Program-made: the position numbers and the translations under genes
NCBI GenBank assembly: GCA_043228905.1
Contig: JBHGNT010000008.1
Location: 3,658,001-3,722,000, forward strand
Length of the DNA stretch: 64,000 bases
Direction of reading: 5' to 3'
Origin: Azolla caroliniana
Lineage: Eukaryota > Plantae > Polypodiophyta
Part shown: positions 12,861 to 51,800 of the stretch, piece after piece
How positions within the stretch are numbered: position 1 is the first letter of the stretch
Layout of the letters: every line of letters starts with the position of its first letter
The notes under the pieces: model-generated
The model's database searches: none
The model's input: only the letters and a program-made list of their open reading frames with translations
What the model was told of the DNA's origin: nothing

Positions 12861-13458
12861 TTATCCCTATGAATATTTTTTCTTTCAGCTTCTAGGACAA
12901 AGGTTTTAGAATTAGAGCTTCAGTTTCCTAATCAGTGAATCCGGAGAATTTCCGCTTCTAGAAACAAGATTACTGGTTGTGAATTAAAGTTTCTTTTTCT
13001 GAGATTTCAGGATTAGGGGCTTTGCTCTGTCTGAGTATTAGTTTTTCCTTTCTCAGCTTAGGTGATTAAGATTTTTTCCTCAGGTTTTGAGATTTGGGTT
13101 ATTATTTTTTCGGGTATTTCAGTTTCTAGAGTAAAGCTACATGATTTAGATTTCTTTCTCCTGCTAAAAGTTGAAATTTTGGTTCTAGAACAAGGTTATA
13201 GGGCTTGGATTGACCCTTTCCTTAAATTAGGGTTTTTTTTCCTTGAGATTTTCAGCTTCTCGAACAAAATAAATATATGTTTTTTTGGCTTGACATCACA
13301 AAACCCTGATTTAGAGCATGAGAGGGCCTATGAAAAAGTCACAGCCTTTGGATTGATCTCTTCATAACAGCCTTAATTTAGGGTTTCTGTTAATTGTTTT
13401 CTAGCTTTTAGGGCAGAGTATACGTACTTCATCTATATAGAGTTTGCTCCATCTTGAG

Positions 13459-25200: not shown

Positions 25201-25390
25201 AAAGAGGTGTACATTTCTCTCTTTATCTTTGCTTGATTGATACATATGCTTATTTGTTGGCATAAATTATTCCCCTGATTTAAATGGGAAATAGGAGACA
25301 TTGCGGAAAGCTGATGAGATTTTCGGACCGGACAACAAAGATCTGTTTTCTACGTTTCAAGCTCTTCTTGGTCGTCGTGGTGTCATATGA
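22276..25390 (+). CDS. At4g15545/NAIP-like coiled-coil protein; join(22276..22533,23359..23427,23542..23604,23960..24008,24160..24255,24370..24525,24974..25019,25128..25206,25295..25390)
   Basis: N-terminus LPSDPYEQLDVARKITSLA, KKLTRDVAKLETFKRTLMQSL, a Ser-rich middle and C-terminal RIDGKQFFRQARIRLSYDQFNAFLSIIKELNAHRETKEETLRKADEIFGPDNKDL all match this family. Exons join in frame; intron 7 needs a GC donor. Confidence 0.88.
22570..22915 (+). repeat. Intronic minisatellite, ~57-62 bp units (about 5.5 copies, partly as a 119-bp dimer)
   Basis: Repeats of gagtagaatccaatatatgcatacatacgtctctaatatttttatctgattgctgtagatttttagtt. Confidence 0.85.
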
Positions 25391-28300
25391 AGAGGTATTC
25401 AAAATAGAGATTGTCTTCAGAACTACTGAAATATCTCATTGTTATTACTGTGTTCGATTATCCGCAGTTCGGTTCACTGATCCTCTTCTATCTTGAAATT
25501 TATTCATTAGCTCATGGAATAGAATCTGGCATTCATTCCTGAATCCTCCATGTAAATTTGATTAATTTGTAATCTCATTTCATTTCATGTTGATCCTAAA
25601 CATGTTCATGAATTCTCTATGTAAAACATCATCCAATTCATTCATTATCCATATACATATATATGATTCATTGAATAATCTATCTTTGGGTTATAAGTTA
25701 ATATAACACAACTTGTATTGCATGTGCTAATCTTGCTAATATAAGATGAAAATTAAATGCCTTGTATTGCCATATAATCTTGTGAGTGCACTAATGGTCC
25801 TAAATCTTCAGTATTCTAGGACTTTATAATAGCCGGTCAATGGAGGAAACTTACATTTAGGTTAACGTTTAAACTTTTAATTCATTTTCAATTGATAATG
25901 GAGTTCCTCCATTGGCATAGATCATCACTACAACCATGATTGCGACTTTGATCTCGCAGAGACATGAAGTTAACTTGTAAGTGACAAACTATACATTGGA
26001 TGAATACACAAGCAAAGCAATCCATCTTTTACTGTGTAATGTTGTGATTCATTTTATGTGCGTCAATGTTTTGTATAAGGCTTGGTGCAATATAGTTCTT
26101 AGATCAATCATGTCTTTTGCAAAACAAGCATATACTAAACTAAAACACATATACCGTATTGAATGAGGAACTTCTCCTAAAGCGCATATGGTGGAATTTT
26201 TTACGTCAATCAGAAGTCATCGATTGTTAAGGTCCAATTCAAGAGTAATAGTTAATTCGTGTGGAATCTAGAGTAATTTCATGATTGTGTCAAACCTTGA
26301 AGTTGCAATACTCTTGATTCGTCGAGCACTCACCCACCATATAGGAGCTTTGGCAATTGAAGCAATTAAGCTTTGGCCATGGAGTGTGTTTTGAGTACAT
26401 GCCATCATCCACCAGCTCCATAAAGTGTGACACCACCTCTTCAGATATTTATACTCGTACTCATCTTTCCTTTTGTCTTCGGTGTAAGATTGGCGCCCCT
26501 TTTCTTCACTCAAGCCTAAGCATCAATGGAGGACCTAGGATGTAAGTATAAAATGAGAGTAGTTAATCTCATTGGCAAGAAAGGAGTATCTTTGTTGGAA
26601 TGTTGTTGAGACACAAATGGTGCCACCAAGCTCTTCCTAACAATAACTAACAATAACGGTCTAGTGGCTACTGATGTAGTGTTCAATTTGCTCATAAGAA
26701 TGCCCTTGCACCACAAAATTTGAGATCATCTTACTGATCTAGGTGGACTTGTAATCATTGACATTCCCTAATCTAAATGACAATTAAGGTGTTTGTTGCA
26801 TCTATACTACCAAGTTGGCCAATAACTAGATTTTGTAACACATTATATAGGTGTTATGGCTTCGAACAAGATGGAATGGAAGAATAGCATAAGAAAAGAA
26901 GAAAAAAAAACAAGAGGCCAATGTAATTATATTAACAAGAAGAACAATATTGCAAGAATACGTCAAAGAATGTCAATGAACCAATATGTGTCTTCAATGA
27001 CAACACTATCTTCTTATATAGGTAGCTTGTGTTTGGAAAATAAGGGAGTCTTATCTTGTAAGAATGTATAGAATTATTGTAAGAAAACTCTATTGAATAC
27101 TAAAAGTCAATCCAATCATCATTAATACTGATGACAACAAAGATATTGTCCCAATGTTTGATTTGACCATCAAGCTCTGGATGATAGTTTGAAGGGAGAT
27201 TACAAACAATTTGGAGGAGTCCATGCTACATATATTTCCAAAATCTAGAGATGAATTTCAGCCCTCAATCATTAAGAAGGTCACGTGGAAGACCATGATG
27301 CCTAAATACTTCATGCATATCTAGATCTTTTGTGTTTTGACTATTGATAATCTTTTTGCATGGGATGTTGTCTGTCATTGGGGAATGACATCCCCCAATC
27401 TCTTGGTTAGCCCATCAAAAGGAAGGCAGCCCCTCGAAACTTGGTAGTTACCCTTGGAATTGCAACACTCCAAGGTATGAGTCATGTTAATCCCTTTGAG
27501 AAAATGTGATTCAATAGCTTTGTTAGAGGACTAGATTCGTAGTTGTAATGTATGTTTTTAGTAAAAGAAACTTTGGTATTGACCATATGGTTGATTGTAA
27601 GCCTTACCAGTTTAAGACAATCAATGGAAACCTATCGCTTTAGATTTCATTATTGATCTTCCAACTTTCAAAGGTTTTTATGTTATTCTTACTCAATAGA
27701 GTATCAATTTATTAGGATGACATAAAGTGTAATTGAATGTGTGTGCCTAAATGTGCATAAGTGCAAGTAATCTATTTTATGTAGGGAGAGTACGTTTAAG
27801 TGTATGTGCACAATTATACATGTGTGTTTAAGTAAATATAAATGTGTAAAGTGTATGAATATGCTTCGAGTTTGTATTAAATTTTTGTGTATATGCGCTT
27901 GAAATGTGTATGTGTTTTTGTATGTGTATGGAAATAATTTATGATGTATATGTGAGTAGGTTTGAGAAGTGATGTAGGTGTAAATGTAAAAGTGTGTTTA
28001 TGTTGGTGAATATGTGTACAAGGAGGGTTATTTGGGGAAATGAAAAGAGTTTAGATTTGTGGGTAAGGCCATAATAATATTCTTTTTCCCTTTTGTGAAG
28101 TGTAAAAGAAGGATTGAAGGCTCGTGATGTAGATGTGATGTGGCGGATGATGTCAACTATTGGTCTGACGGTGTGTCGTGGCAGTAGACAACAACAATGT
28201 TAGCAATGAGTGTGGTGGCATAGCAGAGCTTGAGGAAGCTCCTCAACTCATGAGCTTTCCTTTTTATTTATTTATTTACTAAATTACAATTTTAAAATTT

Positions 28301-32018: not shown

Positions 32019-32796
32019 TCATGATGAAACATAGAGCAAACTCTATGTCGGCCTCTACCTCAACTAGTGCCTCCGGTCCAGAAGACGTATGGTTCGTCGA
32101 TTCCGGTGCCTCGAAGCATATGACATCGCATCAAGAATGGTTCCGAGAACTTTGAGAGCCGGACTGACCCAGCTATGTCGAAACCGGAGACGACACTATG
32201 CACCCGATTCGGCACATCGGCAATGTTCCGTTTGGAAAAGAAGGTGATCGGATGTGTCGTGACTCTTGAGTAGGAAGCAGAGAGAGAGCGATGGCGATAG
32301 AGATAACGATAACGATAGAGATGGCGAGAGCGGTAGAGATAGCGATAGTGATAGCAAAAGAGAGTGAAAGAGGGAGAGAGTGCGAGAGAGAGAAAAGTAT
32401 AAGTGAGAGATAAGAAATGGGAATGCGATTATTATTATGAGAAAGAAGATTACAAGGAGTAGGCTAAGGGCTAAAGACTGGTGTTGAACCGAATGAGTTG
32501 TGATGAGTGTATGGACTCTTATTTATAGGCCCTTATGGAGTATTCTAGAATGTTCTAGAATATTTTAGATATTTATGAATAATAATAATAATAAATATAA
32601 TCATGAAATATTCAAGAACATTCTAGAATAATCTAGAATGTTCTAAATATCTCGTAATAACTAAACATATAATTATTATGGTTACATCTCACATATGTTA
32701 TTACAATGGTTAAAGTACAATATGTAAACCAAGAGGTTATGGGTTCGATTCCTGGTTCGCCAAGATGAATGTCATGATAAGCCAAGATGTATGTCT

Positions 32797-35700
32797 TCAT
32801 GACATTATCCCCCCTTTTCGATGACGAGTTGCACGAGTCGGAAGAAAAGAGTTCAGACTTGGTTTATGAGGATATTGGTTGTGAAATGCAACAACCATAT
32901 CGGAGGCATTGGCAAGATGTTCGGCAGGCTCCCATGTTCGATCATTAGGTGTATAGCCTAACCAATCAACCAAGTAGTATAGTTTGTTGCGAATGATCTT
33001 GGAGTCGAGGATAGCGGCAACCTCATATTCAGAGCCATTGGAAACGTCAATTGGAGGTGGGGGAGGTGTAACACGACCCGGAATAGAGCTCGTTGTGTAG
33101 GGCTCCAAAAGTGAAACATGGAAGACCGGGTGAAGACGCATATGAGGAGGAAGATCAAGACGAAATGTCACATCATTGATCTTACCACTTATGACATATG
33201 GGCCAAAACGTTGATAATCCAATTTGTAGCAAGGTCGGTTCGTTTTAATGCTACCTTGTAAAAGCCATACACGATCGCCTACTTGAAATGTAGTTGATGA
33301 ATCACGCCGATGACGGTCAACAATCTTCTTTTGAGTGTTTTGGGCTTCACATAAATGATGCAAAAGCATATCCTGAACTTCTTGGAGTCGAGTGAGCCGA
33401 TCTTCAGCAGCTGGGTTTTTTGGGAGTTCAGGATGTTCAAGCATCGTCCAACGAGGATGGTACCCAATGTTTGCAAAAAATGGGGAATATCCAGTAGAAG
33501 AATGCTCGGAGTTGTTATAAGCAAATTCTGCCAAAGGTAGTAAATCCACCCAATCATCTTGTTGATAGTTGACAAAACAACGTAGATATTGCTCGACTGT
33601 TTGGTTGGTGCGCTCACTCTGCCCATTAGTCTCTGGATGGTAGCCGGAAGAGAGTTTACAAGAAGTATGTAAGAGTTTGAACATGTGCCGCCAAAATTTC
33701 GAGATGAATTGGGGACCCCGATCACTGATAATATCATCCGGAAGACCATGATGGCGAAACACCTCCTGCATGAGTAAATCAACTGTCTCTTGACTAGTAA
33801 TGGTCTTTGTGCATGGAAGGAAATGTGCCATCTTCGTAAAACGATCGACAACCGTGAGAATCGAATCAAATCCCTTGGAAGGTGGAAGATCCGTAATAAA
33901 GTCCAAGGAAATAGATTTCCATGGGCTCTCCGGAATAGGCATTGGCTGTAATAAGCCATATGGATGACGTCGAGGCTTTTTTGATCGGCAACATGTATCA
34001 CAGCTACAAACATAATCCGTAACAAAATGGCGAAGCCGTGGCCACCAATATCGGCGAGAAATCAACTCAAAAGTCTTGTGGATGCCGAAGTGTCCTGCCA
34101 TTGGTGTGTCATGACATTGTTGCATGACTTTGAGTCGAGAAGGACCGTCAGGCACATACAAGAGAGTTTGTCGAAAAAGTAACCCATCATGCCAACTAAA
34201 CTGGGTGTAGTCTAGACGAGGATTTTGAGTTTGGGAGCTAGATGCACGATTTGGGATAATATGGCTCAAAACCTCTTGGGCGAACGCAACAGTCGCAATC
34301 TGCTCACGAATGGAATCAAGAAGCCTTGAATCTCCCGGTGTGTTGATGGTATGCATTGCCATTATTCGTAGACGATCAGGACCTAAGAGGATTTGCTTTT
34401 GGCTTTCAAATGCGGCCTCTCCAGGTTGAAGTTCCATATACGAACGTCTAGATAAAGCATCTGCTTTTCCTTGTTGCATCCCAGGGCGATATAGAATTAC
34501 AAAATCGAAACGAGTTAAGAACTGCGCCCAACGAGCTTGTCGTCGATTCAAGACTCGAGCACTTTGAAAGTATGTTAGATTTTTATGATCATTGTAGACA
34601 ATAATCTGCTGAGAAGAACCCTCCAGAAAATGACGCCATTGTTGAAAAGAATCCACAATGGCAAGAAGCTCTTTGTCGTGAATCTCATAGTTGATTTCTG
34701 CGGCTTCAAATTTTCGTGAGTGAAAAGCCACCGGGTGCAGTTCACCATCATCACCAATTTGGGATAGTACACTTCCGAGTGCGAAATCCGATGCATCAGC
34801 TTCAAGTATAAAGCGCCTCATTGGATCGACATGGATTAAGATTGGTGCGGATGTAAATGCTTGCTTTAAACCCTCAAATGCAGAGTTCGCATCTATACTC
34901 CATACAAATGATCGATTCTTGTGCGTCAGTTGAGTGAGGGGCAACACAATTTTTGAATAATCTTTGATGAACTTGCGATAAAAGTTTGCGAACCCCAAAA
35001 AACATTGCACATCTCGCACGGACTGTGGTGTTTGCCAATCCAAAATTGTTTGAACCTTTGATGGATCCATAGAGATGCCATTTGAAGAGACTATGTACCC
35101 CAAAAACTCCACTTGACATTGGTCGAAACTACACTTCTCCAATTTTGCATAGAGACCATACTCTCGTAGCCGTTGCAAAACTTGGCGAACATGTATATCA
35201 TGTTCTTCTTGAGTTTTTGAGTAGATCAAGATATCATCCAGGTAAACAATGATGAAGATATCGAGGAAGTCTCGAAAAATATCATTCGCCATATGTTGGA
35301 AGACTGCTGGTGCATTCGTGAGGCCAAAAGGCATCACTGTGTACTCAAAATGACCATAGCGAGTGCGGAACGCCGTCTTCCATTCATCCCCAGGACGAAT
35401 TCGAACAAGGTTGTAGGCACCTCGAAGATCTAACTTCGTGAAATACTTTGCTTCACTGAGGCGTTCTAGAAGGCTTGAGATCAATGGGAGAGCATATCGG
35501 TTTCTAACGGTCACTTTATTCAAGCCTCGATAATCCACGACCATACGAAGCGTACCATCTTTCTTCTTAACGAAAAAGATGGGTGCACCAGCAGGAGATT
35601 TTGAATGTTGGATAAAACCATTTGCCAAGTTCTCATTGATATATTCTCGAAGAACCTCTAACTCCGTGGGCGAAAGATTATAAATTGGTCCCCATGGAGG

Positions 35701-36441
35701 CTCTTTTCCTGGCTGCAAATCAATTGGGCAATCATATGGTCGATGCTCTGGTAGTCTATTAGCCTTCACCTTATCGAACACATCGGAGAATTCTATGTAC
35801 TTCTTTGGTAGTTGGACCCCCAATTCTTGTGAGCTAGATGAGGGAGTTGCTAAAACCGCAAATATCATCATGTCTTCCTTTCTTCCATCCTCTCGTAATT
35901 GATGTATAGAGATTGTTGAAATTGTGGGGGATCCTAGATCCTTAGTTGAAGCTTCAAGAGACTTGGATTGTACGGTGACCTCTTCAATAGTTCTTTTTCT
36001 CCAATCAATGGTTGGGTTATGTAACTCAAACCAAGGAAGACCAAGAACTAGAGAGTGCTCCGGACTACTAATGATGTTAAATGAGATGACACTAGCCAAA
36101 TTACCTAGGACTACACGAATTGGTTCAGACTCTTCGACTATATCTCTTGATGCTATAGGGCGACCATCGATGACTCCTACAACTACTGGGTTTGGGAGTT
36201 TTTTCAAGATGATGTTTTGAGTCAATGCAAACTCGCGATCCATGAAACAAGAATTGGCTCCGGAATCTAGGAGGGCAGAGGCTAGGGCGCGATGACCTGT
36301 AGATGTGCTAAGCTCGACTTGTGCAGAAAAAACTCTACTAACTTGATTTGATGAAATGGAACCACAACTAGGTACTGACTCTACATAACTAGGATGGTCC
36401 AACCAAATGGCTCCTATTTTGGCCGGACTTATTCGTTTAAC
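32797..36441 (-). CDS. pol: Chromovirus Pol (protease-RT-RNase H-integrase-chromodomain), in the -1 frame relative to gag
   Basis: ALLDSGA, YLDD, ADASD..ELLAI, HHCC plus DDE integrase, GPY motif and chromodomain EYEVAAILDS..YLVDWLGY..RTWEP. No ATG start is needed if expressed by frameshift. Confidence 0.94.
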   Translation of the reverse strand, partial: VKRISPAKIGAIWLDHPSYVESVPSCGSISSNQVSRVFSAQVELSTSTGHRALASALLDSGANSCFMDREFALTQNIILKKLPNPVVVGVIDGRPIASRDIVEESEPIRVVLGNLASVISFNIISSPEHSLVLGLPWFELHNPTIDWRKRTIEEVTVQSKSLEASTKDLGSPTISTISIHQLREDGRKEDMMIFAVLATPSSSSQELGVQLPKKYIEFSDVFDKVKANRLPEHRPYDCPIDLQPGKEPPWGPIYNLSPTELEVLREYINENLANGFIQHSKSPAGAPIFFVKKKDGTLRMVVDYRGLNKVTVRNRYALPLISSLLERLSEAKYFTKLDLRGAYNLVRIRPGDEWKTAFRTRYGHFEYTVMPFGLTNAPAVFQHMANDIFRDFLDIFIIVYLDDILIYSKTQEEHDIHVRQVLQRLREYGLYAKLEKCSFDQCQVEFLGYIVSSNGISMDPSKVQTILDWQTPQSVRDVQCFLGFANFYRKFIKDYSKIVLPLTQLTHKNRSFVWSIDANSAFEGLKQAFTSAPILIHVDPMRRFILEADASDFALGSVLSQIGDDGELHPVAFHSRKFEAAEINYEIHDKELLAIVDSFQQWRHFLEGSSQQIIVYNDHKNLTYFQSARVLNRRQARWAQFLTRFDFVILYRPGMQQGKADALSRRSYMELQPGEAAFESQKQILLGPDRLRIMAMHTINTPGDSRLLDSIREQIATVAFAQEVLSHIIPNRASSSQTQNPRLDYTQFSWHDGLLFRQTLLYVPDGPSRLKVMQQCHDTPMAGHFGIHKTFELISRRYWWPRLRHFVTDYVCSCDTCCRSKKPRRHPYGLLQPMPIPESPWKSISLDFITDLPPSKGFDSILTVVDRFTKMAHFLPCTKTITSQETVDLLMQEVFRHHGLPDDIISDRGPQFISKFWRHMFKLLHTSCKLSSGYHPETNGQSERTNQTVEQYLRCFVNYQQDDWVDLLPLAEFAYNNSEHSSTGYSPFFANIGYHPRWTMLEHPELPKNPAAEDRLTRLQEVQDMLLHHLCEAQNTQKKIVDRHRRDSSTTFQVGDRVWLLQGSIKTNRPCYKLDYQRFGPYVISGKINDVTFRLDLPPHMRLHPVFHVSLLEPYTTSSIPGRVTPPPPPIDVSNGSEYEVAAILDSKIIRNKLYYLVDWLGYTPNDRTWEPAEHLANASDMVVAFHNQYPHKPSLNSFLPTRATRHRKGGIMS
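36390..36441 (-). other. -1 programmed ribosomal frameshift signal (G UUA AAC + 6-nt spacer + H-type pseudoknot)
   Basis: Minus strand reads GTTAAAC gaataa GTCCGGCCAAA aTAGGAgcca TTTGGTTGGAC ca TCCTA: 11-bp stem 1 and 5-bp stem 2. Confidence 0.8.
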
Positions 36442-37556
36442 ACATCCTCTAATTGGCTCAAGACATCAAATCTATTCTCATGGCATGGGCTATTAGGCTT
36501 AGTACTTAAGTTATTAGAAGTGATAGTAGAACTTGATGTAGGGTTGTCATGTGCACTTACTTGGTAAACTTGACGCCTGGGTTTATGTGGACAATTCACA
36601 GCTATATGTCCTGGACCACCACAGTAGAGGCATAGGCGATGCGCCCGACGTCGTTGTTTCTCAGCATCTGATAAGGGCCCTCGACGTTGTGTCGACTCTA
36701 TTTCCATCGGAGTGGGACCATCCCTCGTAACGGGTCTAGAACCTTGTGGCGGTGTGGCGACTATAGAAGCGTATGTCTGTTCCGGTTGGCGGCGTAACAT
36801 TTGTTGACGTTCAGAACGTCGCTCAAATAGGCGATTATCACATCGCACAGCTCGGCTAATAGCTTCAATAAGAGACTTTGGATCTTCATGGAAAGTAAGA
36901 AGAAGATCTTTGACATCGTTACGCAAACCCTGACGGAATTGATCCATTAAGGCTGCCTCATCCCAAGGGATGTCGCATGCCAAGAGACGGAAATCTGCGG
37001 CATAAGCTGAAGCGGGACGATCTCCTTGTCGGAGTCTTCGAATCTTGTTTATTGCAGTCCTAGTGCTATCCGTATCTCCAAAACTAGCTTGAAACTCCTT
37101 AACGAATGCCTCGAAATCCTCTAGTAATGGTGATTTCTTCTCAAGAAGTGGTGCAAACCATGCTAACGCTGTACCGCTTAGCAAGGTTCCTATTAATCCC
37201 ACACGGGCAGCATCAGTTGGATACCGATTGGGATGTAACTGAATCACCAAACGAACTTGATTCAGGAAACCTCGAAAGAGAGATCTGGTACCATCAAACT
37301 TGGCAGGGAGGCTAATCTTTGGTTCCCTTGGGGAGTTTTGAACCCCCGCCGCTTGTTCTCGTAATGTTAATATAGTAGCCTCAAGTTGATGAACCCGTTG
37401 TGATAACTCCTCATATTGATGAGCTTTCTCAGTACTGACTTGTTGAAGATCCCCGAGTAGCCTTTGATTTTCTTGCTCTAATGCCACAAACTTAGTGGTG
37501 ATCATATCGAGCTCCGAAAGGACACGCATATACTCTTGCTTGCTGACCGACTCCAT
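36429..37556 (-). CDS. gag: Chromovirus Gag (coiled coil, capsid, CCHC zinc knuckle)
   Basis: 375-aa ORF with LPAKFDG, LRQG..ASAYAADF, PTPMEI and CLYCGGPGHIAVNC. Confidence 0.92.
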   Translation of the reverse strand: MESVSKQEYMRVLSELDMITTKFVALEQENQRLLGDLQQVSTEKAHQYEELSQRVHQLEATILTLREQAAGVQNSPREPKISLPAKFDGTRSLFRGFLNQVRLVIQLHPNRYPTDAARVGLIGTLLSGTALAWFAPLLEKKSPLLEDFEAFVKEFQASFGDTDSTRTAINKIRRLRQGDRPASAYAADFRLLACDIPWDEAALMDQFRQGLRNDVKDLLLTFHEDPKSLIEAISRAVRCDNRLFERRSERQQMLRRQPEQTYASIVATPPQGSRPVTRDGPTPMEIESTQRRGPLSDAEKQRRRAHRLCLYCGGPGHIAVNCPHKPRRQVYQVSAHDNPTSSSTITSNNLSTKPNSPCHENRFDVLSQLEDVLNE

Positions 37557-37627
37557 AACCGCGGGGGAAAAAGAAAGAAGGATAAAGAAGAAAGCTTGCT
37601 AGGGTTATTGGAGGAAGGGAAAAGAAT

Positions 37628-37638
37628 ATTCGGTTCAA
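37628..37638 (-). other. Self-priming primer-binding site (TTGAACCGAAT) complementary to the predicted transcript 5' end at 37870-37880
   Basis: Lies 2 nt from the 5' LTR end, does not start with TGG, and is a perfect 11-nt complement of ATTCGGTTCAA, which begins 33 nt after the TATA box. Confidence 0.85.
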
Positions 37639-37905
37639 ACTGTCGTGACTCTTGAGTAGGAAGCAGAGAGAGAGCGATGGCGATAGAGATAACGATAACG
37701 ATAGAGATGGCGAGAGCGGTAGAGATAGCGATAGTGATAGCAAAAGAGAGTGAAAGAGGGAGAGAGTGCGAGAGAGAGAAAAGTATAAGTGAGAGATAAG
37801 AAATGGGAATGCGATTATTATTATGAGAAAGAAGATTACAAGGAGTAGGCTAAGGGCTAAAGACTGGTGTTGAACCGAATGAGTTGTGATGAGTGTATGG
37901 ACTCT

Positions 37906-38030
37906 TATTTATAGGCCCTTATGGAGTATTCTAGAATGTTCTAGAATATTTTAGATATTTATGAATAATAATAATAATAAATATAATCATGAAATATTCA
38001 AGAACATTCTAGAATAATCTAGAATGTTCT
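37906..38030 (-). promoter_or_regulatory. LTR promoter: TATA box (TATAAATA, 37906-37913) with two heat-shock-element arrays (37928-37947, 37996-38030); duplicated in the 3' LTR (32520-32644)
   Basis: aTTCtaGAAtgTTCtaGAAt and aTTCaaGAAcaTTCtaGAAtaaTCtaGAAtgTTCt fit alternating nGAAn/nTTCn pentamers. Confidence 0.78.
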
Positions 38031-38082
38031 AAATATCTCGTAATAACTAAACATATAATTATTATGATTACATCTCACATAT

Positions 38083-38148
38083 GTTATTACAATGGTTAAA
38101 GTACAATATGTAAACCAAGAGGTTATGGGTTCGATTCCTGGTTCGCCA
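38083..38148 (+). other. Degenerate tRNA/SINE-like segment in LTR U3 with Pol III B box (also 32697-32762)
   Basis: TACAATGGTTAA (weak A box/D-loop-like), GGTTCGATTCC (canonical B box, 38128-38138), ending in CGCCA. Cloverleaf stems are poor. Confidence 0.5.
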
Positions 38149-40313
38149 AGATGAATGTCATGATAAGCCAAGATGTATGTCTTCATGACAGGATGCAGAT
38201 GGATTTACAAAGTGAAGTACAACGCCGACGGTTCTGTCAACCGCTACAAAGTGAAACTCGTAGCGAAAGGCTATGCACAAACGCACGGAGTTGACTATGA
38301 AGAGACCTTTGCCTCGGTGGCAAAGATGACGACGGTATGAACTGTAATTGCGCTTGCTGCTGTGAAAGGGTGGCACCTCCATCAAATGGACGTCAAGAAC
38401 GCCTTTCTACAAGGCGAATTAGAAGAGGTGTACATGATCCAACCACCCAGCTTGAACTCGAGCACCCATCCGAAAGCTGTTTGCCGATTCAAGAAGCCAC
38501 TCTACGGCCTCAAGCAAGCACCGTGTGCTTGGCATTTGAAGATAATGCAATATCTTCATCAAATCGGCTTCTGTATGTCAAAATCGGACAACTCCCTCTA
38601 CATACGAAGCGATTCCGCAAGTCCGATCGTCATCATCTTATATGTGGATGACCTAGTCATTGGAGGTGCGCATCTCGTCGAAATCAATAAGGTCAAATCC
38701 CTCCTTTCCGACAAGTTCGAGATGATGGACATGAAGGAACTCCACTACTTCCTCGGCATCGAGGTAATTCGGACTCCGACCGGAATCATGATTTCTCAAC
38801 GGCACTACATCCTCAACTTGTTATACAAGTTTGGTATGGCTAAGTGCAAATCCGTAGCAACCCCACTCGATCGCAATCTCAAACTAGATGCGAACTCTGG
38901 CAGCAAAGCGTGTGAGCCGTCTCAGTATCGGCAACTCATCGGGAGTCTCATCTACCTCACGATCACTCGACCCGATCTCAGTTATCCGGTCGGTCTCCTT
39001 AGTCAATTCATGCAAACACCGCGTGATACTCACTTGGATTGCGCTAAGCGAGTTCTACGGTACGTGAGCGGCACAATGGATTGCGGCATCCTCTACAAGA
39101 CCGCGATGCCAATATGCCTCGAGGGGTACACAGACGCCGATTGGGCTGGCTACAAAGCCGATAGAAGATCAACCTCCGGATTTGTTTTCTCCCTCGGCAG
39201 CGGAGCAATATCCTGGAGTAATAAGAAGTAGTCTACCGTCGCTCTTTCAAGTACGGAGGCGGAATACAGGGGCGTAGCCGTAGCTGCGTGTGAAGCCGTA
39301 TGGCTCAAGAGGATTTTGAATGATCTGGGCGTACCCATCAAGGATCTGACTTCCCTTTACTGCGACAACATGAGCAATATCTATTTGGCTCGGAACCCGG
39401 TGTTCCACGTGCGGACAAAGCACATCGACGTGCACTATCACTTCATCCGAGAGTGCGTTCTAGTTGGCGATGTCGACCTACAACACATTAGCACAAATCT
39501 TCAAACGACCGACATCTTCACTAAAGACTTAGGAGCCTACAAGTTGTGGCAATTCATGACCGATCTCGGATTGACGATCCTTGACCTGCCAAGCTTGAGG
39601 GGGAGTACTAAAGACATTACGCAATAACGCATGGATTCTACAGGCCGCACACACTACGCAAGAACATGTGGATTACGTAACCACGCAATGAAGCCGCGAA
39701 GAGCCGATCTACCGCGCAAAGCCGCGAAGAAATACGCAAGCTGAAGCACAGACTTCGCAACTACGCACAACGCAAGCTGGAGCACGAATTCCGTAACTCC
39801 GCATAAATGCGAGTCGACACGAGTCGACGCAGACTCCAGAACGTGAGTTGAAGCGGATTTCGGATACCGTCTGAAACCGACCTGACTTGAGCTTGAGGGG
39901 GCGTGTTAAGAATCAAGCTCAACTTGGTCTAGTGTGCGAACTCACCTTGAGAGTGAATAGACACTCCAACGGTCAAGAGTCACCATTATGTCACCTCTTT
40001 GTATTCTAGCATTTAGTATGAGTCATAGAATCATATTCTATGACACATAACTTATGAGCTTTCACATTCCCCATGCTCCATGAGTCTTGTAGTTAATGAA
40101 GAGAGAGGGTGACTATATAAAGCACTCTCCTCTCACCTTGTATCATGTTGAGTCTTTCTCCTTTGTTAATATACTTTTACCTTGCGTATTCTCTGTGTCT
40201 TATTCCTTGTCTCTCTCACTCACTCACACACACACTCTCTCTCTCATACACACACATAACTCATATATCTCTTCCGCTTCACAAGAATCCATCTCTTGAT
40301 TCTTTACAATTAT

Positions 40314-41835: not shown

Positions 41836-43665
41836 CTTGAACAGTCATTGCAGGATACTTCTACTCGACTTTCTCATTCATCAGAAGTGCAGGTGCAGTC
41901 TTTTAAGCCCAAACAATGTTTATGAAAGGTCTAGAATCCAAACAGATGCATGCATACATCTCTAAATTTTTTATCTGATTGCTTTAGATTTGTAGTTCCT
42001 TTGCATAATTTGTATTCATTTTGTATAATTCAAAAGGAATCTGGGCGGATTAGCAAAGAAACGTTGCCCGACATTGTGCAAGGGCATTTTTCTTATCCAT
42101 CAAACCCTTTCCATCGCTAACTTCTGTTATTCATGTCAGAGAAATTGCTGAAGTAGTTTATGTTTGTAAACAGAACCAAATCAACGCAAATTTGTCAGAA
42201 GCTAAAAGAGTAGTTTTGGCAATCGGTTTTTGTTAACTTTCCCAATCGTGTTTTTCAGATTCATCCACTAGAATCAATTTGACAAATTCTTGTAGATTCA
42301 TGACGATAAAAATATCTGTGGATTCATGTCTGTTTTTCTTTATGGAACCATGAGGGTCTACTCAGTTAGAGAACTATGTGAGACTGAGGTTTCTCTTACA
42401 TATACATGTGCAATGTCCATTAGTATCTGCACATTCAGATTCATCCCCTAGAATCAAATTGACAAATTATGGAACAGGGTCTACAACAGTTTCACCCCTG
42501 CATGAAGATGAGTATTTCGTTAGTGAAGGTTGTCCTGGAGTATGGCTTCTTTTTTGATTCAATGGATGTTTCTTTTGTGCTCTTTTCTTGTTCTTGCTTC
42601 CTGTGTTTTAATTCTGTATTAACCCCATTGAAAACCTAACAGAGTTCTCCGAAAAGCAATCAAGCTCAGGATCACCCTCGCAAAATTCTGCAACGTATTC
42701 ACCTAGATGGCATTCTACAAGGGACATTACTCGTTCATTACCATCTTCTCAATCTACGATCCAAAATTCAACAGTGACAAGTTCACCACCTAACACTGGT
42801 ATATTTTAGAGCTCAAAAGAGCTCTGTCTTTTCAAACAGGATGTCCTTAATGAGTCATTCATGAGGAACTCAACCTAAAACAGCCTCCTCGAAATTTTCA
42901 TTGATCTGTGAACTTTTTTGGGGCGATCTTCTTGATCTAGATCCTTAAGTTGCACTTATGGGCATGCATTTAGAAATATCCTGATGAGGATTAGCTTTAG
43001 AATATGATCATTAAATTGGAAAATGCTTTATAAATCACCTCTCAATTTGAAGAGTTAATATGAAAGTGCTACCTACATGTATTTACATGCACAGCTTTGC
43101 CCATGCGATATCAACCCCTCAATCCAAAAACCGCATTAAAGTTTGAAAACACTTAAATCCTAATGCAGACATGTATCATTTTCATATGATGGTTTGAAGT
43201 TAGATACTTTCTTTTCCATTGGCTTCAGCCATTCCAGAAGACATGCCACAGATTGATGGAAAACAGTTCTTCCGGCAAGCCAGGTGAGAAAACATGCTTA
43301 CTCTTTTCCCTACTCATACATGCATGACATAAAGAAAAAACTATATTGTTAGGTTATATGCCCTTACCATGTGAATGGATCTCTGATGCAGGATCCAGTT
43401 ATCATATGAACAATTTAAAGCATTTCTGAGTGTAATCAGAGAGCTTAATGCTCATCTCAAGACCAAAGAGGTGTCCATCTGTCCTATAGATGAAAGTTTC
43501 TCTCTTTATCTTTGCTTGATTGATACATATGCTTATTAGTTGGCATAATTATTCCCCGGATTTAAATGGGAAATAGGAGACATTGCGGAAAGTTGATGAG
43601 ATTTTTGGACCCAACAACAAAGATCGGTTTTCTATGTTTCAAGCTCTTCTTGGTCTTCGTGGTGT
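41836..43665 (+). pseudogene. Copy B of the At4g15545-like gene (exon-1 tail, partial intron 1, exons 5-9)
   Basis: Homology to 22477 onward. Exons 2-4 are deleted near 42255, the exon-5 acceptor is CAG>CAC, and the stop codon is lost at the junction with copy C. Confidence 0.85.
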
Positions 43666-46600
43666 TCAGCAAAACCATGATGATGAAACTGAGATAAAAT
43701 GTTCTATGAACTTCTCCTGGTTATTTCGTGTGCAGCAAAACCATGATAATGAAAAGCCTTTAGGATTCTCTTTGGACTCCACAGGTAAGAACTCTTCTCA
43801 ATCCAAACAAATCTCTGTAGATTCATGTCTGTTTTTCTTTATGGAACCATGAGGGTCCACTTAGTTAGAGAACTATGTGAGACTGAGGTTTCTCTTACAT
43901 ATACATGTGGAATGTCCATTAGTATCTGTAGATTCAGATTCATCCACTAGAATCAAATTGACAAATTCTTGTAGATTCATGACGATAAAAATCTCTGTGG
44001 ATTCATGTCTGTTTTTCCTTATGGAACCATGAGGGTCTACTTAGTTAAAGTACTATGTGAGACTGAGGCTTCTCGTACATATACATGTGCAATGTCCACT
44101 AGTATCTGCACATTCAGATTCATCCACTAGAATCAAATTGACAAATTATGGATTAGGGTCTACAACAGTTTCACCCCTGCATGAAGATGAGTATTTCGCT
44201 AACGAAGATTGTCCTGCACTAGGTTTTTTTTTTGATTCAATGGATGTTTCTTTTGTGCTCTTTTCTTGTTCTTGCTTTCTAAGTTTTAATTCTGTATTAA
44301 CCCCATTGCAATCCTAACAGAGCTCCTGAAAAAGCAATCAAGCACAGGATCACCCTCGCAAAACTCTGCATCGGATTCACCTAGATGGCATTCTACAAGT
44401 AACATTACTCGTTCATTACCATCTTCTCAATCGACGAGCCTAAATTCAACAGTGACAAGTTCACCACCTAAAACTGGTATATTTTGGACCTTTAAAAGAG
44501 CTATGTCTTTTCAAACAGGATATCCTTAATGAGTCATTCATGAGGAACTCAACCTGAAACAGCCTCCTCGGAATTTTCATTGATCTGTGAACTTTTAGGA
44601 GGCTATCCTGTTGATCTAGATCCTTATGTTGCACTTATGGCCATCCATTTAGACAAATCCTGATGAGGATTAGCATTAGAATATGATCATTAAATTTGAA
44701 AATGCTTTATAAATCTCCCGTCAATTTGAACAGTTCATAAGAAAGTGCTACCTGCATGTATTTATAAGCACAGCTTTGCTCATAATTTATCGAGATGCAA
44801 CCCCTCAATCCAAAAACCCTATTTAAGTTCCAAGACACTTAAATCCTAATGCAGACATATATCATTTTCATATGATGGTTTGAAGTTAGATACTTTCTTT
44901 TCCATTGGCTTTAGCCATTCCAGGAGACATGCCATGCATTGATGGAAAACAGTTCTTCCGGCAAGCCAGGTGAGAGAACATGCTTACTCTTTTCCCTACT
45001 CATACATGCATGACATAAAAAAAAAACTATATTGTTAGGTTGTATGCCCTTACCATGTGAATGGATGTCTGATGCAGGATCCAGTTATCATATGATCAAT
45101 TTAATGCATTTCTGAGCATCATCAAAGAACTTATGCTCATCGCAAGACCAAAGAGGTGTGCATTTGGCCTATACATGAAATTTTCTCTCTTTATCTTTGC
45201 TTGATTGATACATATGCTTATTTTTTGGCATAATTGTTCCGTTGATTTAAATGGGAAATAGGAGATATTGCGGAAAGCTGATGAGATTTTTGGACCCAAC
45301 AACAAAGATCTGTTTTGTATGTTTGAAGCTCTTCTTGGTCATCGTGGCGTAATATGAAGAGTTATTCAAAATAGAGCTTGGCTTCAGAACTGCTGAAATA
45401 TCTCATCGTTATCACTGTGTTCGATTATATGCCCAGTTCGGTCCACTGATCCTCTTCTATCCTGAAATTTATTCATTAGCTCATGGAATATAATCTGGCA
45501 TTCATTTCTGAATTCTCGCTGTAAATTTGATTAATTTATAACCTCATTTCATTTCATAATGTTGTGATCCTAAACATGTTCTGAATTCTCTATGTAAAAC
45601 ATCATCCAATTCATTCATTATCCATATACATATATATGATTCATTGAATAATCTATCTTTGGGTTATAAGTTAATATAACACAACTTGTATTGCATGTGT
45701 TAATCTTGCTAAAATAAGATGAAAACTAAATACCTTGTATTGTCGTATAATCTTGTGAGTGAACTAATGGTCCTAAATCTTGAGTATTTAGGACTTCCGT
45801 TCGGGTTAATGTTTAAACTTTTAATTCATTTTCAATTGATAATGGAGTTCCTCCATTGGTAGAGATCATTATTACAATCATGATTGCGGCTTTGATTTCG
45901 CAGAGACATGAAGTTAACTTGTAAGTGACGAACTATACAATGGATGAATCCAAAAGCAATCCATCTTTTATTGTGTAATGTTGTGATTCATTTTATGTAC
46001 ATCAATGTTTTGTATAAGACTCGGTGTATTATAGTTCTTAGATTAATCATGTATTGTGCAAAACAAGCATATCCTAAATTAAAGCTCATGTAGCATATTG
46101 AATGAGGATCTTCTCCTAAAGCTCATATTGCGGAATTTTTTACGTCAATAAGAAGTCATTGATTGGTAAGATCCAATTCTAGGGTAGGAGTTAATTTGCA
46201 TGGAATCTATAGTAATTTCATGAGTGTGTCAAGCCTTGAAGTTACAATACTCTTGATTCATTGAGCACTAGCTCACCATATAGGAACTTTGGCAATTGAA
46301 GCAATTCAGTTTTGGCCATGGAGGTACACTGATAGTGCACCTCCATGGAGTGTGTTTTGGGTACATGCCATCATCCACCAGCTCCATAAAGTGGGCTCCA
46401 TAAAGTGGGATTCCACCTCTTCATGATGTTTCTACTAATACTCATCTTTTCTTTTGTCTTCAATGTAAGCTTGGCTCCCTTTTTCTCCATTCAAGCCTAA
46501 GCATGAATGTAAGACCTATGATGTAAGTATAAAATGAGAGTAACTAATCTCATTGGGGAGAAAGGAGTATCTTTGTTGGAATGTTGTTGAGACACAAATG

Positions 46601-46945
46601 GTGCCACCAAGCTCTTCCTAACAATATTTAACAACAGTTTTGTGGTTACTTGTGTAGTGTTCAATTCGATCATAAGAATCCCATTGCACGACAAAATTCG
46701 AGATCATCTTACTCATCTAGGTGGACTTGCAGCCATTGATATTCCCTAATCTAAATGACAATTAAGGTGTTTGTTACATCTATAATACCAAGTTGGCCAC
46801 TAATTAGATTTTGTAACATATTATAGGTGTTACGGCCTAGAACAAGATGGAATGGAAGAATAGCATAAGGAAAGAAGAAAGAAATAAGTGGAGAATGTAA
46901 TCATCTTAACAAGAAGAACAATATTACAAGAATATGTCAAAATAA
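43666..46945 (+). pseudogene. Copy C of the At4g15545-like gene (exons 4-9) plus ~1.6 kb of duplicated 3' flank
   Basis: Homology to ~23900-26965. Internal duplication of intron 4/exon 5, and a 1-nt deletion in exon 8 (gaacttatgctc vs gaacttaatgctc). Confidence 0.85.
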
Positions 46946-48831
46946 TATACATGTTGTGGGTCTAATCTACTCGTGTCATCCAACTATTTATTTGTACTAT
47001 TGGATTTCTGTCCCTGTGTTAAGTGCAAGTCTTAGGGCCGGCAACTTTTCGTACTTGATCGGCTTGTGACACCCTTGTGTTTCCATTCCTACATAACCAC
47101 GATTCCTTGACCCGATTACCCTAAGAGTAATCGAAGGTGTTATCTCCGAAGAAGAGATAACACAATTTGGCACGCCCGGTTCACGTTGTGAAGCACAACG
47201 AACAGTGTAGGAGGAACAACCCCCGTCGCTAGTTCGGTGCCCCCTCGCACCAAGCGTTCTCGGCTACCATCTAGCTACGCCGAGCCCGCCGAGGAAAATT
47301 TTGACTTAGTGCTCACGCAACAATCATCGCTAGAGCCAGTAGAGTCGTCTCCCTCTCTGTTAATTGCACTAGACACCCAATCAAACTTGGGCCTTGACCT
47401 ATTGCGCCTCCAAGCCCTCCCGAAGTTACCCAAACCGAGTGTAACCCATTTCCGGCGTTACCAGAAGACCCAGACTTCGACACCATGCCCTATCCATATC
47501 CCCGTTATACAGATGGCCCTGATGCGGAATCCCACATCCATTCTTTTGTGTCAACTTAGCAAGCCAACCATTCTACGCAGCATCTCACCGTTGCAGAGGT
47601 TGATGCGTCCAAAATTGCAGAATTCACATTGTCCCTCGATGGACCCGTTGCTCGATGGTATTCCCGTTGCGATCTTGGGGAATTTGTTACGTTTTAGGAC
47701 ATTCACACTCAATTCCTCGAACTTTTTTACTACGAGATACCTAAGCGGGAACTGCTCCGCTAGTTCTACGCTATAATACAAGAACCGCATTAGACGGTTT
47801 CTCAGTTCACAATCCGATTCTAGGATCTCTATCGGCAGCTCGCTCAAGATGTGTTCGCAAATAATTTAAAAGACGCGTTCCTTGCCGGCCTCCGGGAGCC
47901 CCTCCGAACAACTCTCACCTTGATAGATTTTTCCCAATAGACCATTGAGCAAGTGGTCGCTTGTGTCCTCGCAATGGATAGAGCCCAACATAGTACTTCT
48001 TTTTTGATGGGCTCACTCCAACACGCCTTGCCGACCCATGAAGAAACCCAGTTTCGGGAGGCTCTCCAATGCACAACGTGCACAAAATCCGGCCACTCGG
48101 CCGTGGATTGTCCTCTCCGCCCACACTGCCCGATCTACCATTCTCGGGTGCATACGGTCGAATAATGTGAGTACAATATGCTTAATCGTACAACCTTTGG
48201 TTCTGTACAACAGATTGAGCCATACCACGATCGCCCTCAATAGGATGATCGTTCCTCACCTCGGAATAGGGACGCCGAACAACCTTGGTACTGACCCAAG
48301 CAGGATTGCTATCGCTAGGATAACCAGTACTGACTTGAGGAGCCGTGTTATTGGCTAGATAATCGATCTTGACCCGAGGATGACCGCTACCAACATCGTG
48401 ACGACCGCTATCGCCTTGACGACGACTATTACTACTACAATTACGACCGGGAAGACTACTTATGAACCAAGGTATTAACAGTATGATCGGCGACTCCCTA
48501 TTAAAATTGCGGTTCCCCGCCCTCAGACAATCGACGACCCTCAGACAATCAACGTTGCGACCCTTCGCGCCTCGATAACTGACGACCCCCCCCCCCCTCC
48601 TCCCCCCCCAAAAAAACCAGAGCATTACACCACTCAGTGCCCGACAAATGATCGCTAAAAAGCCCCTGCAGTAAATATCATTATGGTGGACATCCAACAA
48701 GTCATCACCCGGAGTAAGGCTCAAAAAACCCAATGGGATATACAAGACGAAGTTTAGCAAGCCGCCAAGCAATGGATAGAGATAGCCAATGTTGCCAACA
48801 CCGAGAGAATGCATACCGAGATGAAGGATAT

Positions 48832-51800
48832 TGTTAGAAATTGACGCTTTCCAAACCTTCTCCTCTCGGCCACAAGCGAGGAAACACGAATCAATGCAGC
48901 AGTAAATCGAAAACACAGAGAGAGACTCGAATGCACAGGGTTTAGCGTGGAAAACCCTAGACGGGAAAAACCACGGGAGTGCAAGACTCCAACTATCACT
49001 ATACGCAGGGAATGTACAATGGCGAGCTGCAAGGCGACGACCTTGAGCTCGCTGTCCTCGCCACAGGCGGCAGTATTACACAGAGGTGTCGACCTCTTCC
49101 TTTCTCTCTCTCTCTCTCTCTCTCTCGGCTGCTCTCACTTCGCTCCCTCTAAGTGGAAAACAGAAAAATGAGCAACAACTACAAAACTGTTTGCCCTAAG
49201 TCATATTTATACACATATGACTTTCGGGCTATTTACAAATATAGCCTCGAGGGCCCTTGGCAAACATATTCACAAATATGTCCCCGCATCCGGATCTCTC
49301 TCCGGGTACATTCGTCATCCGGCTCCGTAGCCGGGGTCTTCATCATCCGGATCCGAAACCGGGTCTTCATCATCCGGTTCCGATACCGGGTACTCCTCAT
49401 TCGGGTCTTCATTCCCGATTCCCAGACATCTGACCATCCCATCCGGAGGGACCGTAATCCCAACAAACTCCCCCTTCACTTCGGCATGGGATGTCTTTCC
49501 AGTCCGACCCTCTTCCGGCACGCTTCCAGCTTGTCGGGTGTGAGCACTTTGGTCAGCATATCTGACCCGTTCTCGTCCGTGTGGATCTTCGTCAGCACGA
49601 ACTCCTGGTCTTCTATCCTTTCCCGGATCCAGTGATATCTTCGCTGGATGTGCTTCGTCCGGGACTGATAAGCCGCGTTCTTCGCAAGGTGGATGGCACT
49701 CTGACTGTCGCAGTAGAGTCGGTACTCCTCCTGCCGGATACCGAACTCTCTAATGAAGTCCTTCATCCATATTATTTCCTTGCCGGCTTCAACAGCCGCC
49801 ATGTACTCCGCCTCCGTAGTTGACAACGCAACCGTCTTCTGCAGCCTCGACTGCCACGAAACAGCTCCCCCTGCATACGTCATCACATACCCTGATGTGG
49901 ACCGGCTGGTATCTGCATCAGCCGACATATCCGAATCGGTAAAGCCGTCGAGTTCGGGTTTACCGGAGCCGAATCGGAGGCACACGTTTGCCGTGCCCTT
50001 CAGGTATCGGAGTATCCACTTGGTCGCGTTCCAGTGCTCTTTGCCGGGATTGCTCATGTACCGGCTCACCACTCCGACTGCATATCCTATGTCCGGTCTT
50101 GTACACACCATTGCGTACACCAAGCTTCCGACGGCAGAGGCATATGGTACTTTCATCATGTCCTCCTTCTCAGCCTTTGTCTTGGGGCTTTGCTTGCTGG
50201 ACAACTTGCAGTTTGCCGGGAGGGTTGACCCGACCGGTCTTGCTTCCGACATGTTGAACCGGTGAAGCACCTTTGTCACGTACTTCTCCTGTGACAGCCA
50301 CAACTGCTTCTTCTTCCGGTCTCGGATGATGTGCATCCCTAGTATTTGCCTCCGGACCCAGGTCCTTCATTGAGAAGGTTCGGTGAAGCGCTTTCTTCAG
50401 CATCCGTATCTTGACCTGGTCCCGTCCGACGATCAACATGTCGTCCACGTACAGGAGGAGTATTAGAAAGTCTCCTCCTTCGAACTTCTTCACAAACACG
50501 CAGTGATCGGACTGCGTTTTGTGGTACCCTTCGTCGGTCATGAAAGAGTCGAACTTCCGGTACCATTGCCGGGGAGCCTGCTTCAGTCCGTAAAGGCTCT
50601 TCTTCAACCGGCATACCAGGTGCTCCTTCCCTTTCTTCTCGAATCCTTCCGGTTGCTGCATGTAGATCTCTTCTTCGAGGTCGCCGTGAAGGAATGTCGT
50701 CTTCACGTCCACCTGTTCTACCTCGAGGTCCATGCTTGCCGCTATGCTCAGCACCGTCCGGATGGAGGTCATCTTCACTATCGGGGCAAATATCTCGTCG
50801 AAGTCGATGCCCTTCTTCTGCTGGAACCCCTTCACCACGATCCTGGCTTTGTATCTCGGGGGGTTTCCGGCATCTCCCGGTTTCAGCTTGAACACCCACT
50901 TGTTTCGAAGTGCCCGCTTTCCTTTCGGCAACTCCACAAGTTCATATGTGTGGTTCTCATGCAGGGAATCCATCTCCTCATGCATGGCACTTAACCACCT
51001 GCGGCTATGGGTGTCAAGCTTTGCTTCTTCAAAACTCTCCGGCTCCCCCTCGTCGGTTAGCAGCACGTGCTCTGGTTCCGGAAATCTCCGGGGGGCCCTT
51101 ATCTCTCTTAGAGGATATCTCCGTTCCGGAGCTTCGGTAACCGGCTCCTCCGTTTCCTCTTCATCCGAATCCATTTCGGGATCGGGGCCGGTTCCGGTAT
51201 CAGTTTCATCTTCCTCGGCCGGTTCTGTTTCTTCACCATCTTCGGCCGGATCCTCGAGTGCTAACCGGTCCCTTGCCGGTCAGGACTGCTCCTCGTAGAG
51301 TTGATCCTCACCGGTCGACTTGGAGCTCTTCATCTTCTTCTCCGACTCCCAGTCGGCGAGTGTCTTGTCCTCCATGAAGATGATATCACGACTCCGGAAT
51401 ATCTTTTTGTCGACCGGGTCCCATACTCGGTAGCCGAACTCGTCATCGCCGTAACCGAGGAATATGCATGGCCGGGTCTTTGGATCTAGCTTTCCTCTCC
51501 GGTCCTTTGCCACATGCACATATGCGAGACACCCGAACACCTTCAGATGCCGGTAGGATACTTCCCTACCGGTCCACACTCTCTGCGGCGTGTCTCCGTC
51601 CAAAGGTACTGAGGGTGATCTGTTTATCACGTATGTCGCCATCGACATTGCCTCAGCCCAAAACCCCTTGGGTAATTTCGCATGCGCCAGCATGCTCCGG
51701 ACCCTCTCCATTATGGTCTGGTTCATCCTCTCGGCCAGCCCGTTCAGTTTCGGTGTCTTCGGCACAGTAAACTCGAGCCGGATTCCCTTCGAGCGACAGT

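What the first reader, a model, noticed from the sequence alone, without database searches (positions are those of the whole stretch)
37628..37880. Tf1-type self-priming: primer site is the exact complement of the predicted first 11 nt of the transcript
Seen: after the 5' LTR the minus strand reads GT-TTGAACCGAAT with no TGG tRNA complement. Its perfect complement ATTCGGTTCAA starts 33 nt downstream of the first T of the TATA box. Known: S. pombe Tf1 primes reverse transcription with the first 11 nt of its own RNA. Inference: the same mechanism operates here, with a transcription start at 37880.
Basis: partly seen in the sequence, partly recalled or inferred. Interest (0 to 1): 0.72.

Follow-up and report, generated by a model that had tools for sequence, protein, structure and literature searches.

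The report
Self-priming retrotransposon with genomic priming scars
A young jumping gene in what is likely a fern has a primer site that pairs exactly with the predicted first 11 bases of its own RNA, its relatives keep that pairing with different letters, and dozens of miscopied insertions are joined at that very site, so it most likely starts copying itself without a host tRNA, a trick already known from yeast Tf1 and predicted for related moss elements.

Summary
Observation confirmed. The site belongs to a 5,936-bp chromodomain Ty3/gypsy element (LTRs 549/550 identical, 5-bp TSD). The PBS (37638-37628) pairs 11/11 with 37880-37870, 33 nt after the TATA box; 0 of 20,000 shuffles match there. 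In six primer types of this genome the letters change but the pairing holds: 129 of 135 scorable loci have at least 10/11 pairs, and 7 of 11 pairs show double changes. The bases just after the PBS are scrambled among copies, unlike in a tRNA-primed control. 54 genomic sites read U3-primer-reversed U5. Of 11 such copies that reach the primer's edge, 5 stop there, 6 run into U3 and none stops at the predicted cap site, as RNA cleavage after the primer would predict. The start site and the cleavage were not measured. Self-priming is shown for Tf1 and was predicted for 83% of plant Tcn1 elements (PMC6317226); this scan saw it before in peat-moss genomes. New member of a known kind; the likely fern host and the scars are the additions.

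The parts
38191..38195 (-). Target-site duplication, upstream copy (5 bp)
   Evidence: same 5-mer at 32250-32254
37641..38190 (-). 5' LTR, 550 nt, TG...CA
   Evidence: one difference from the 3' LTR
37906..37913 (-). TATA box (first T at 37913)
   Evidence: a TATA box at the same spacing (primer 3' end at +42 to +44) in all six primer types
37870..37880 (-). Predicted self-primer: first 11 nt of the predicted transcript, predicted start 37880
   Evidence: start inferred, not measured
37862..37868 (-). Weak inner stem arm (3-5 predicted pairs with the LTR end, probability 0.47-0.58)
   Evidence: 8-bp strong stem at the same place in types D and E
37639..37640 (-). 2-nt spacer between LTR end and PBS
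   Evidence: also 2 nt in types B, C, D
37628..37638 (-). Primer-binding site, exact complement of 37880-37870
37625..37627 (-). Variable junction directly after the PBS
   Evidence: control
36429..37556 (-). gag ORF (capsid, CCHC knuckle), first ATG 37556
32797..36465 (-). pol frame overlapping gag by 37 nt: protease motif, RT, RNase H, integrase, chromodomain
32878..33027 (-). Chromodomain with the aromatic Y, W, Y residues of the group I type
   Evidence: PF00385 E 1.8e-11; residues printed; cage positions recalled
32808..32819 (-). Polypurine tract
32255..32804 (-). 3' LTR
32250..32254 (-). Target-site duplication, downstream copy; the element interrupts the RT frame of an older copia element on the + strand

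Best explanation
This young chromovirus-type LTR retrotransposon likely primes minus-strand DNA synthesis with its own RNA: a transcript predicted to start at 37880 would fold so that its first 11 nt pair with the PBS two bases past the 5' LTR, and a cut after nt 11, inferred to be made by the element's RNase H as in Tf1, would free the 3'-OH. Shown here: the element's anatomy, the exact duplex at fixed spacing from TATA and LTR end, its covariation over six primer types, the scrambled junction after the PBS, and rearranged insertions joined at the primer's 3' end. Inferred: the start site, the cut and the enzyme; that plus-strand synthesis copies the still-attached primer to rebuild the PBS (which would explain both the covariation and the scrambled junction, through untemplated additions); and that the rearranged copies are reverse-transcription errors in which strong-stop DNA with its primer was copied or folded back.
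For: Exact 11-bp duplex, 0 of 20,000 shuffles at that spacing. 176 Gag loci examined, 135 scorable: 103 have 11/11 and 26 have 10/11 Watson-Crick pairs; pairs 4-10 change on both sides between types A, B1, B2, C, D, E; cross-type pairing of the window's primer falls to 5.0-5.6 of 11 with types D and E. Types follow the Gag tree; one copy (L183) has a private double change. In family B pair 8 is T-A in 62 and C-G in 40 of 107 copies. LTR ends verified in 10 of 16 fetched elements, 9 with 5-bp TSD. Pairing ends at a C/A step 32-33 nt after TATA in every type. The junction after the PBS is the most variable 6-column window of about 440 columns in three young subfamilies (n = 15, 10, 11); in the tRNA-Met-primed copia of this window the first three bases after the PBS are unchanged in 73 of 78 copies (hand count). 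33 + 21 sites read U3-primer-reversed U5; of 34 loci examined, 11 reach the primer edge: 5 stop there, 6 run on into U3, 0 stop at the predicted cap site; 7 have matching 5-bp TSDs, one (L270) with U3 at both ends. RT-RNase H groups with fungal and vertebrate elements, apart from angiosperm and Closterium ones (100/99). Tf1 mechanism: PMC7175516 passages, PMC11042837 passages.
Against: Start site, cut and primer were not measured. The leader as a whole folds no better than shuffles (z -0.80). Of the Tf1 three-duplex 'pretzel', the inner duplex is weak in types A, B and C (3-5 pairs, p 0.34-0.65) and no outer duplex was predicted in any of 6 representatives. 41 of 176 loci lacked an anchor and were dropped; PBS bases 1-3 were part of the anchor; four C-type copies were mis-sorted into B by my flank rule. 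2 of 30 close copies have a PBS mismatch. The junction borders a pyrimidine run where slippage adds variation. 23 of 34 rearranged loci do not reach the primer edge, and a TSD around a copy with normal ends cannot tell an RT error from a later chromosomal rearrangement. The tRNA set was partial (39 sequences, 12 isotypes).
Confidence: 0.9

Rival explanations
1. A host tRNA fragment ending in the T-loop primes the element; the PBS resembles the complement of a T-arm and the LTR arm is incidental.
For: An ARAGORN-called tRNA-Val(AAC)-like gene has 10 of the 11 letters in its T-arm (L240); tRNA-Asn T-arms match 9 nt including the spacer.
Against: The matches are internal, not at a 3' end; types C, D and E have PBS letters unlike a T-arm; the LTR arm follows every PBS change; reversed copies stop at the primer edge rather than at the cap site.
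Confidence: 0.03
2. The duplex is real but structural (packaging, translation control or dimerisation); priming happens some other way.
For: Covariation alone shows pairing, not priming; the flanking Tf1 duplexes are weak or absent.
Against: The site lies 2 nt from the LTR end where a primer must bind, no other PBS is present, and the rearranged copies show the arm's 3' end continued by sequence copied from the PBS-U5 side, with the polarity of minus-strand priming.
Confidence: 0.04
3. Self-priming is right but the main start is some bases upstream of 37880 (for example 37885 or 37887), so the primer carries an unpaired 5' tail, or the 11-mer of another RNA copy primes in trans.
For: Other pyrimidine-A steps at +23, +26, +28 from TATA; the duplex forms equally with such starts; in family B 13 of 81 copies extend the PBS by a G complementary to the base upstream, three by more.
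Against: In family A only 2 of 100 listed normal copies extend pairing by one base (hand count), and the scrambled junction begins right where pairing ends in each family, as expected if the copied primer ends there.
Confidence: 0.12

Closest known systems
Plant Tcn1 clade of chromoviruses (Neumann et al. 2019, PMC6317226: passages and supplementary file 5 read; Novikova et al. 2010, PMC2864245: passages and section 7 read)
   Same: 5-bp TSD, length 5,936 bp (clade range 5,466-9,444), overlapping gag and pol frames (60% of the clade), chromodomain with aromatic residues, no tRNA PBS, complement of 10 nt or more in the 5' LTR (self-priming predicted for 83% of 1,500 elements), RT closer to fungal and vertebrate elements than to seed-plant ones.
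   Different: Host is likely a fern, whereas both papers report the clade only from mosses and club-mosses and Novikova found no Tcn1-like clone in 26 ferns and horsetails by PCR. The passages read give a prediction from complementarity alone, without covariation, junction variation or rearranged copies. No named Tcn1 reference was in my tree.
Tf1/Tf2 of Schizosaccharomyces pombe and Tj1, Tosmo1-3, Tcry1 (PMC7175516, PMC11042837, PMC4600332, bioRxiv 10.1101/2022.12.06.519325: passages read; Levin 1995 and Atwood-Moore 2006 not held, titles seen in reference lists only)
   Same: 11-nt 5' segment complementary to the PBS, chromodomain integrase, primer copied into the PBS, RT reported to add untemplated bases.
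   Different: Two overlapping ORFs; a 2-nt spacer between LTR and PBS (in Tf1 the PBS letters follow the LTR directly according to the passage); only one weak flanking duplex predicted in place of the full three-duplex pretzel; no experiment.
TAR (Houba, Osr-1) Ty1/copia lineage (PMC6317226 passages)
   Same: Plant LTR elements with predicted self-priming (89%).
   Different: Other superfamily, no chromodomain, independent origin.

Membership tests
Chromovirus (Ty3/gypsy) | Order PR-RT-RH-INT with C-terminal chromodomain, LTRs TG...CA, TSD, PPT | tested here: met
Tf1/sushi group | RT groups with fungal and vertebrate chromoviruses, not seed-plant clades | tested here: met
   28-row RT-RNase H tree, split 100/99; rows named by host only, no Tf1 or sushi reference; 27 of 120 listed hits used
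Tf1/sushi group | PBS complementary to own 5' region, not to a tRNA 3' end | tested here: met
   tRNA set partial
Tf1/sushi group | Primer is the very 5' end of the transcript | not testable with these tools
   indirect support only; contigs cannot show a start
Tf1/sushi group | RNase H cut between primer and the rest of the RNA | not testable with these tools
   indirect: 5 of 11 reversed copies that reach the primer edge stop there, none at the cap site
Tf1/sushi group | Three-duplex pretzel structure | tested here: inconclusive
   central duplex p 0.89-0.96 in 6 of 6 types; inner duplex strong in D and E, weak in A, B, C; outer duplex predicted in 0 of 6
Tcn1 clade | Monophyly with named Tcn1 references | not tested
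   no named Tcn1 sequence was available from the tools; REXdb fasta supplement too large
Tcn1 clade | Group I chromodomain, overlapping gag/pol, 5-bp TSD, 5.5-9.4 kb | tested here: met
   against supplementary file 5; cage positions recalled
Tcn1 clade | Host is a moss or club-moss (reported range) | tested here: not met
   an RPK2-like gene of the window nests among fern sequences (SH-aLRT 100 and 97, long branch, one gene); a range statement, not a molecular feature

The most novel reading that the evidence does not exclude
A fern genome carries a large radiation of Tf1-type self-priming chromoviruses, outside the reported range of the clade, and its own insertions record the reaction: the scrambled bases after the PBS mark the RNA's cap site, and dozens of integrated reverse-transcription errors preserve the primer joined to strong-stop DNA that ends at the cleavage site. 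That would let priming mode, start site and cut site of any LTR family be read from a genome assembly alone.
Probability: 0.6. Interest if true: 0.55.

Novelty: new member of a known kind. Interest (0 to 1): 0.4.

Why it matters
The mechanism is known and was predicted for this plant clade, so the finding as written is ordinary. What it adds: in the papers read, plant self-priming rests on complementarity alone; here covariation, a junction footprint with a tRNA-primed control and integrated error products give independent genomic support and point to the cut site. A fern host would widen the range of a clade whose patchy spread has been used to argue for horizontal transfer from fungi.

Tried and rejected
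RNA evidence: no RNA holder listed; the four runs laid are contigs of relatives, which cannot show a start; contig ends at 37867 and 37890 were not used. Whole-leader folding gave no signal. My first tRNA comparison read broken lines and was redone. The base count after the family A PBS (A 63, C 23, T 12, G 2 of 100 listed, 123 in all, by hand) is biased: the pattern's last letter excluded the rearranged class later found. LTR pairs were not found for 6 of 16 elements, both type E copies among them, so the LTR end of type E rests on motif likeness. A cap-templated C at PBS base 12 was considered; C is also the local background, so not claimed. Literature: searches for Tcn1 with fern terms and for strong-stop or inversion products of self-priming elements found nothing to the point; subscription journals, most supplements and the large supplementary files 1 and 3 of PMC6317226 were not seen, so absence from print is not shown. 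Levin 1995, Atwood-Moore 2006 and Esnault and Levin 2015 were not held. Eight earlier notes on this genome concern another lineage.

Full report
Observation. On the minus strand the 5' LTR (38190-37641) ends in CA, then come two spacer bases and the 11-mer at 37638-37628. Its exact complement lies at 37880-37870, starting 33 nt after the first T of the TATA box at 37913. The duplex is 11 bp and cannot be extended on either side. Of 20,000 dinucleotide shuffles of the LTR, 21 held an 11-nt complement to a start 0-5 nt past the LTR and 0 held one 25-40 nt after the TATA position. Predicted pair probabilities are 0.78-1.00, though the pyrimidine-rich leader as a whole folds no better than shuffles (z -0.80).

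The element. It spans 38190-32255 (5,936 bp); the LTRs differ at 1 of 550 positions and are flanked by a 5-bp duplication, so it is very young. It interrupts the RT frame of an older copia element. Gag (capsid, CCHC) and pol (protease motif, RT, RNase H, integrase, chromodomain) lie in overlapping frames, with a polypurine tract before the 3' LTR. An RT-RNase H tree of 28 rows (27 picked from 120 listed hits) puts it with fungal, frog and fish elements and apart from angiosperm and Closterium ones (100/99); no named Tcn1 or Tf1 sequence was in the tree. An RPK2-like kinase gene of the window nests among fern sequences (SH-aLRT 100 and 97, on a long branch), so the host is likely a fern; this rests on one gene.

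Covariation. The 30 best close copies all keep the LTR arm and 28 keep the PBS (one is the window itself). Two Gag profile searches gave 300 matches; I examined 178 loci (60 delivered, 118 fetched), dropped 2 duplicates, and of 176 found both a TATA and an LTR-end anchor in 138 and a third, pairing-independent anchor in 135. Watson-Crick pairs of 11: 103 loci have 11, 26 have 10, 5 have 9, 1 has 8. Six primer types occur (A, the window's; B1, B2, C, D, E). Pairs 4 to 10 change on both sides between types; pairs 1-3 (part of the anchor) and 11 do not vary. The window's primer pairs on average 5.6 and 5.0 of 11 with the PBS of types D and E. Pair 12 holds in B and C, and pair 13 in only 15 of 135 loci; in each type the pairing ends at a C/A step 32-33 nt after TATA. 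The types follow the Gag tree of 48 of 136 rows, and copy L183 has a private double change. My flank rule mis-sorted four C copies into B. Whole elements confirmed the LTR end before the PBS in 10 of 16 cases (types B, C, D; 9 with a 5-bp TSD); RT identity to the window is 76-83% for B and C and 55-59% for D.

tRNA rival. Among 98 tRNA genes (39 distinct, 12 isotypes; a partial set) the best match is 9 nt inside a T-arm and none is at a 3' end. A T-arm pattern search gave 3 sites, one in a tRNA-Val(AAC)-like gene with 10 of the 11 letters. Such a primer cannot explain types C, D and E or why the LTR arm tracks the PBS.

Junction footprint. In three young B subfamilies (15, 10 and 11 copies) the most variable 6-column window of about 440 columns is the one just after the PBS. 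In a genome-wide B2 pattern (238 sites, 100 listed) base 12, left free, is T in 100 of 100, base 13 takes all four letters, and the sequence then returns to sublineage motifs. In family A base 12 is A 63, C 23, T 12, G 2 of 100 listed (by hand, rearranged copies excluded by the pattern). In the tRNA-Met-primed copia of this window the three bases after the PBS are unchanged in 73 of 78 copies (by hand). Tf1 copies its primer into the PBS and adds untemplated bases (PMC11042837 passages); a scrambled junction where pairing ends is what that would leave (inference). Slippage in the adjoining pyrimidine run adds to the variation.

Rearranged copies. Two B2 sites continued past the PBS as the complement of U3. 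Patterns for this junction found 21 sites in family B and 33 in family A, with 0 for the reversed control patterns. I examined 34 loci (12 B, 22 A). Read on the element strand they run U3, primer, then the reverse complement of the LTR end for a variable length, then jump to other sequence; second junctions differ, so most are separate events (L298 and L299 look like one). Eleven reach the primer's 3' edge: 5 stop there (L266, L272, L274, L276, L293), 6 run on through the primer's complement into U3, and none stops at the predicted cap site; two more stop 2-5 nt short; the rest end earlier. Seven have matching 5-bp duplications; L270 has U3 at both ends, which a normal insertion cannot give by simple later rearrangement. 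Likely reading: growing DNA switched onto minus-strand strong-stop DNA that still bore its primer and ended at the cut site, or plus-strand strong-stop DNA folded back on its own primer sequence, and the products were integrated. With an outside primer, strong-stop DNA should reach the cap site 11 nt further. For copies with normal ends, chromosomal template switching after insertion is not excluded.

Pretzel. The central duplex is predicted in 6 of 6 type representatives; an inner stem with the LTR end is strong in D and E (8 pairs) and weak in A, B and C; no outer stem was predicted. Tf1's three-duplex structure (bioRxiv 10.1101/2022.12.06.519325 passages) is thus only partly matched.

What is known. 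Tf1 pairs its first 11 bases with the PBS and RNase H cuts between bases 11 and 12 (PMC7175516 passages). Neumann et al. 2019 predicted self-priming for 83% of 1,500 plant Tcn1 elements by the same complementarity test and found the clade only in mosses and club-mosses (PMC6317226 passages and supplementary file 5; files 1 and 3 too large to see, and they may list close relatives). Novikova et al. 2010 found no Tcn1-like clone in 26 ferns and horsetails and no evidence of priming mode in the Selaginella element (PMC2864245). PMC3350952, PMC7466625, PMC4600332 and PMC13469084 were seen as passages only. Earlier notes of this scan report the same signature in peat-moss-like genomes.

Verdict. 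Real and well supported; works like Tf1 with probability about 0.9; a likely member of the Tf1/sushi group and Tcn1-like, strict Tcn1 membership untested. New member of a known kind. Interest 0.4, carried by the genomic scars and the likely fern host, not by the mechanism.

Noticed in passing
G000, 54 sites, e.g. L270, L283, L285, L286, L289, L291, L292, L293: Rearranged insertions reading U3-primer-reversed U5, several with perfect 5-bp TSDs; L270 is a palindromic U3-to-U3 insertion; L293 holds the same rearranged LTR twice.
   Followed up: partly
window 48830-54212, minus strand: Young copia element (636-nt LTRs, 99% identical) with a canonical tRNA-Met-type PBS near 53575; 78 pattern matches in the genome; used as control.
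   Followed up: partly
window 13441-16668, plus strand: Intronless RPK2-like LRR receptor kinase frame (1,075 aa) on a long branch among fern sequences; may be fast-evolving.
   Followed up: partly
window 5350-7068, plus strand: 572-aa open frame with no Pfam match.
   Followed up: no
window 37826-37890, run X3: One 105-nt contig of a relative (depth 6.5) ends in an A run on the element strand about 20-30 nt beyond 37826, a weak hint of a poly(A) site some 75-85 nt after the predicted start.
   Followed up: no
window 37907-38036 and the same part of the 3' LTR: U3 holds an imperfect palindrome with repeated TTCTAGAA units just upstream of the TATA box, resembling heat-shock elements (motif recalled, I21).
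   Followed up: no
G000:C5:17987927-17993943 (L031, L038, L039), C2:20108306-20111379 (L048), C11:692924-696555 (L049, L050): Tandem arrays of tRNA-Lys(TTT)/Asn(GTT) with a 368-bp period, of tRNA-Ile(TAT) and of tRNA-Arg(TCT).
   Followed up: no
window 1-1850, 22477-26967, 41836-46941: Three copies, one inverted, of an unidentified 2-4 kb repeat, 88-95% alike.
   Followed up: no
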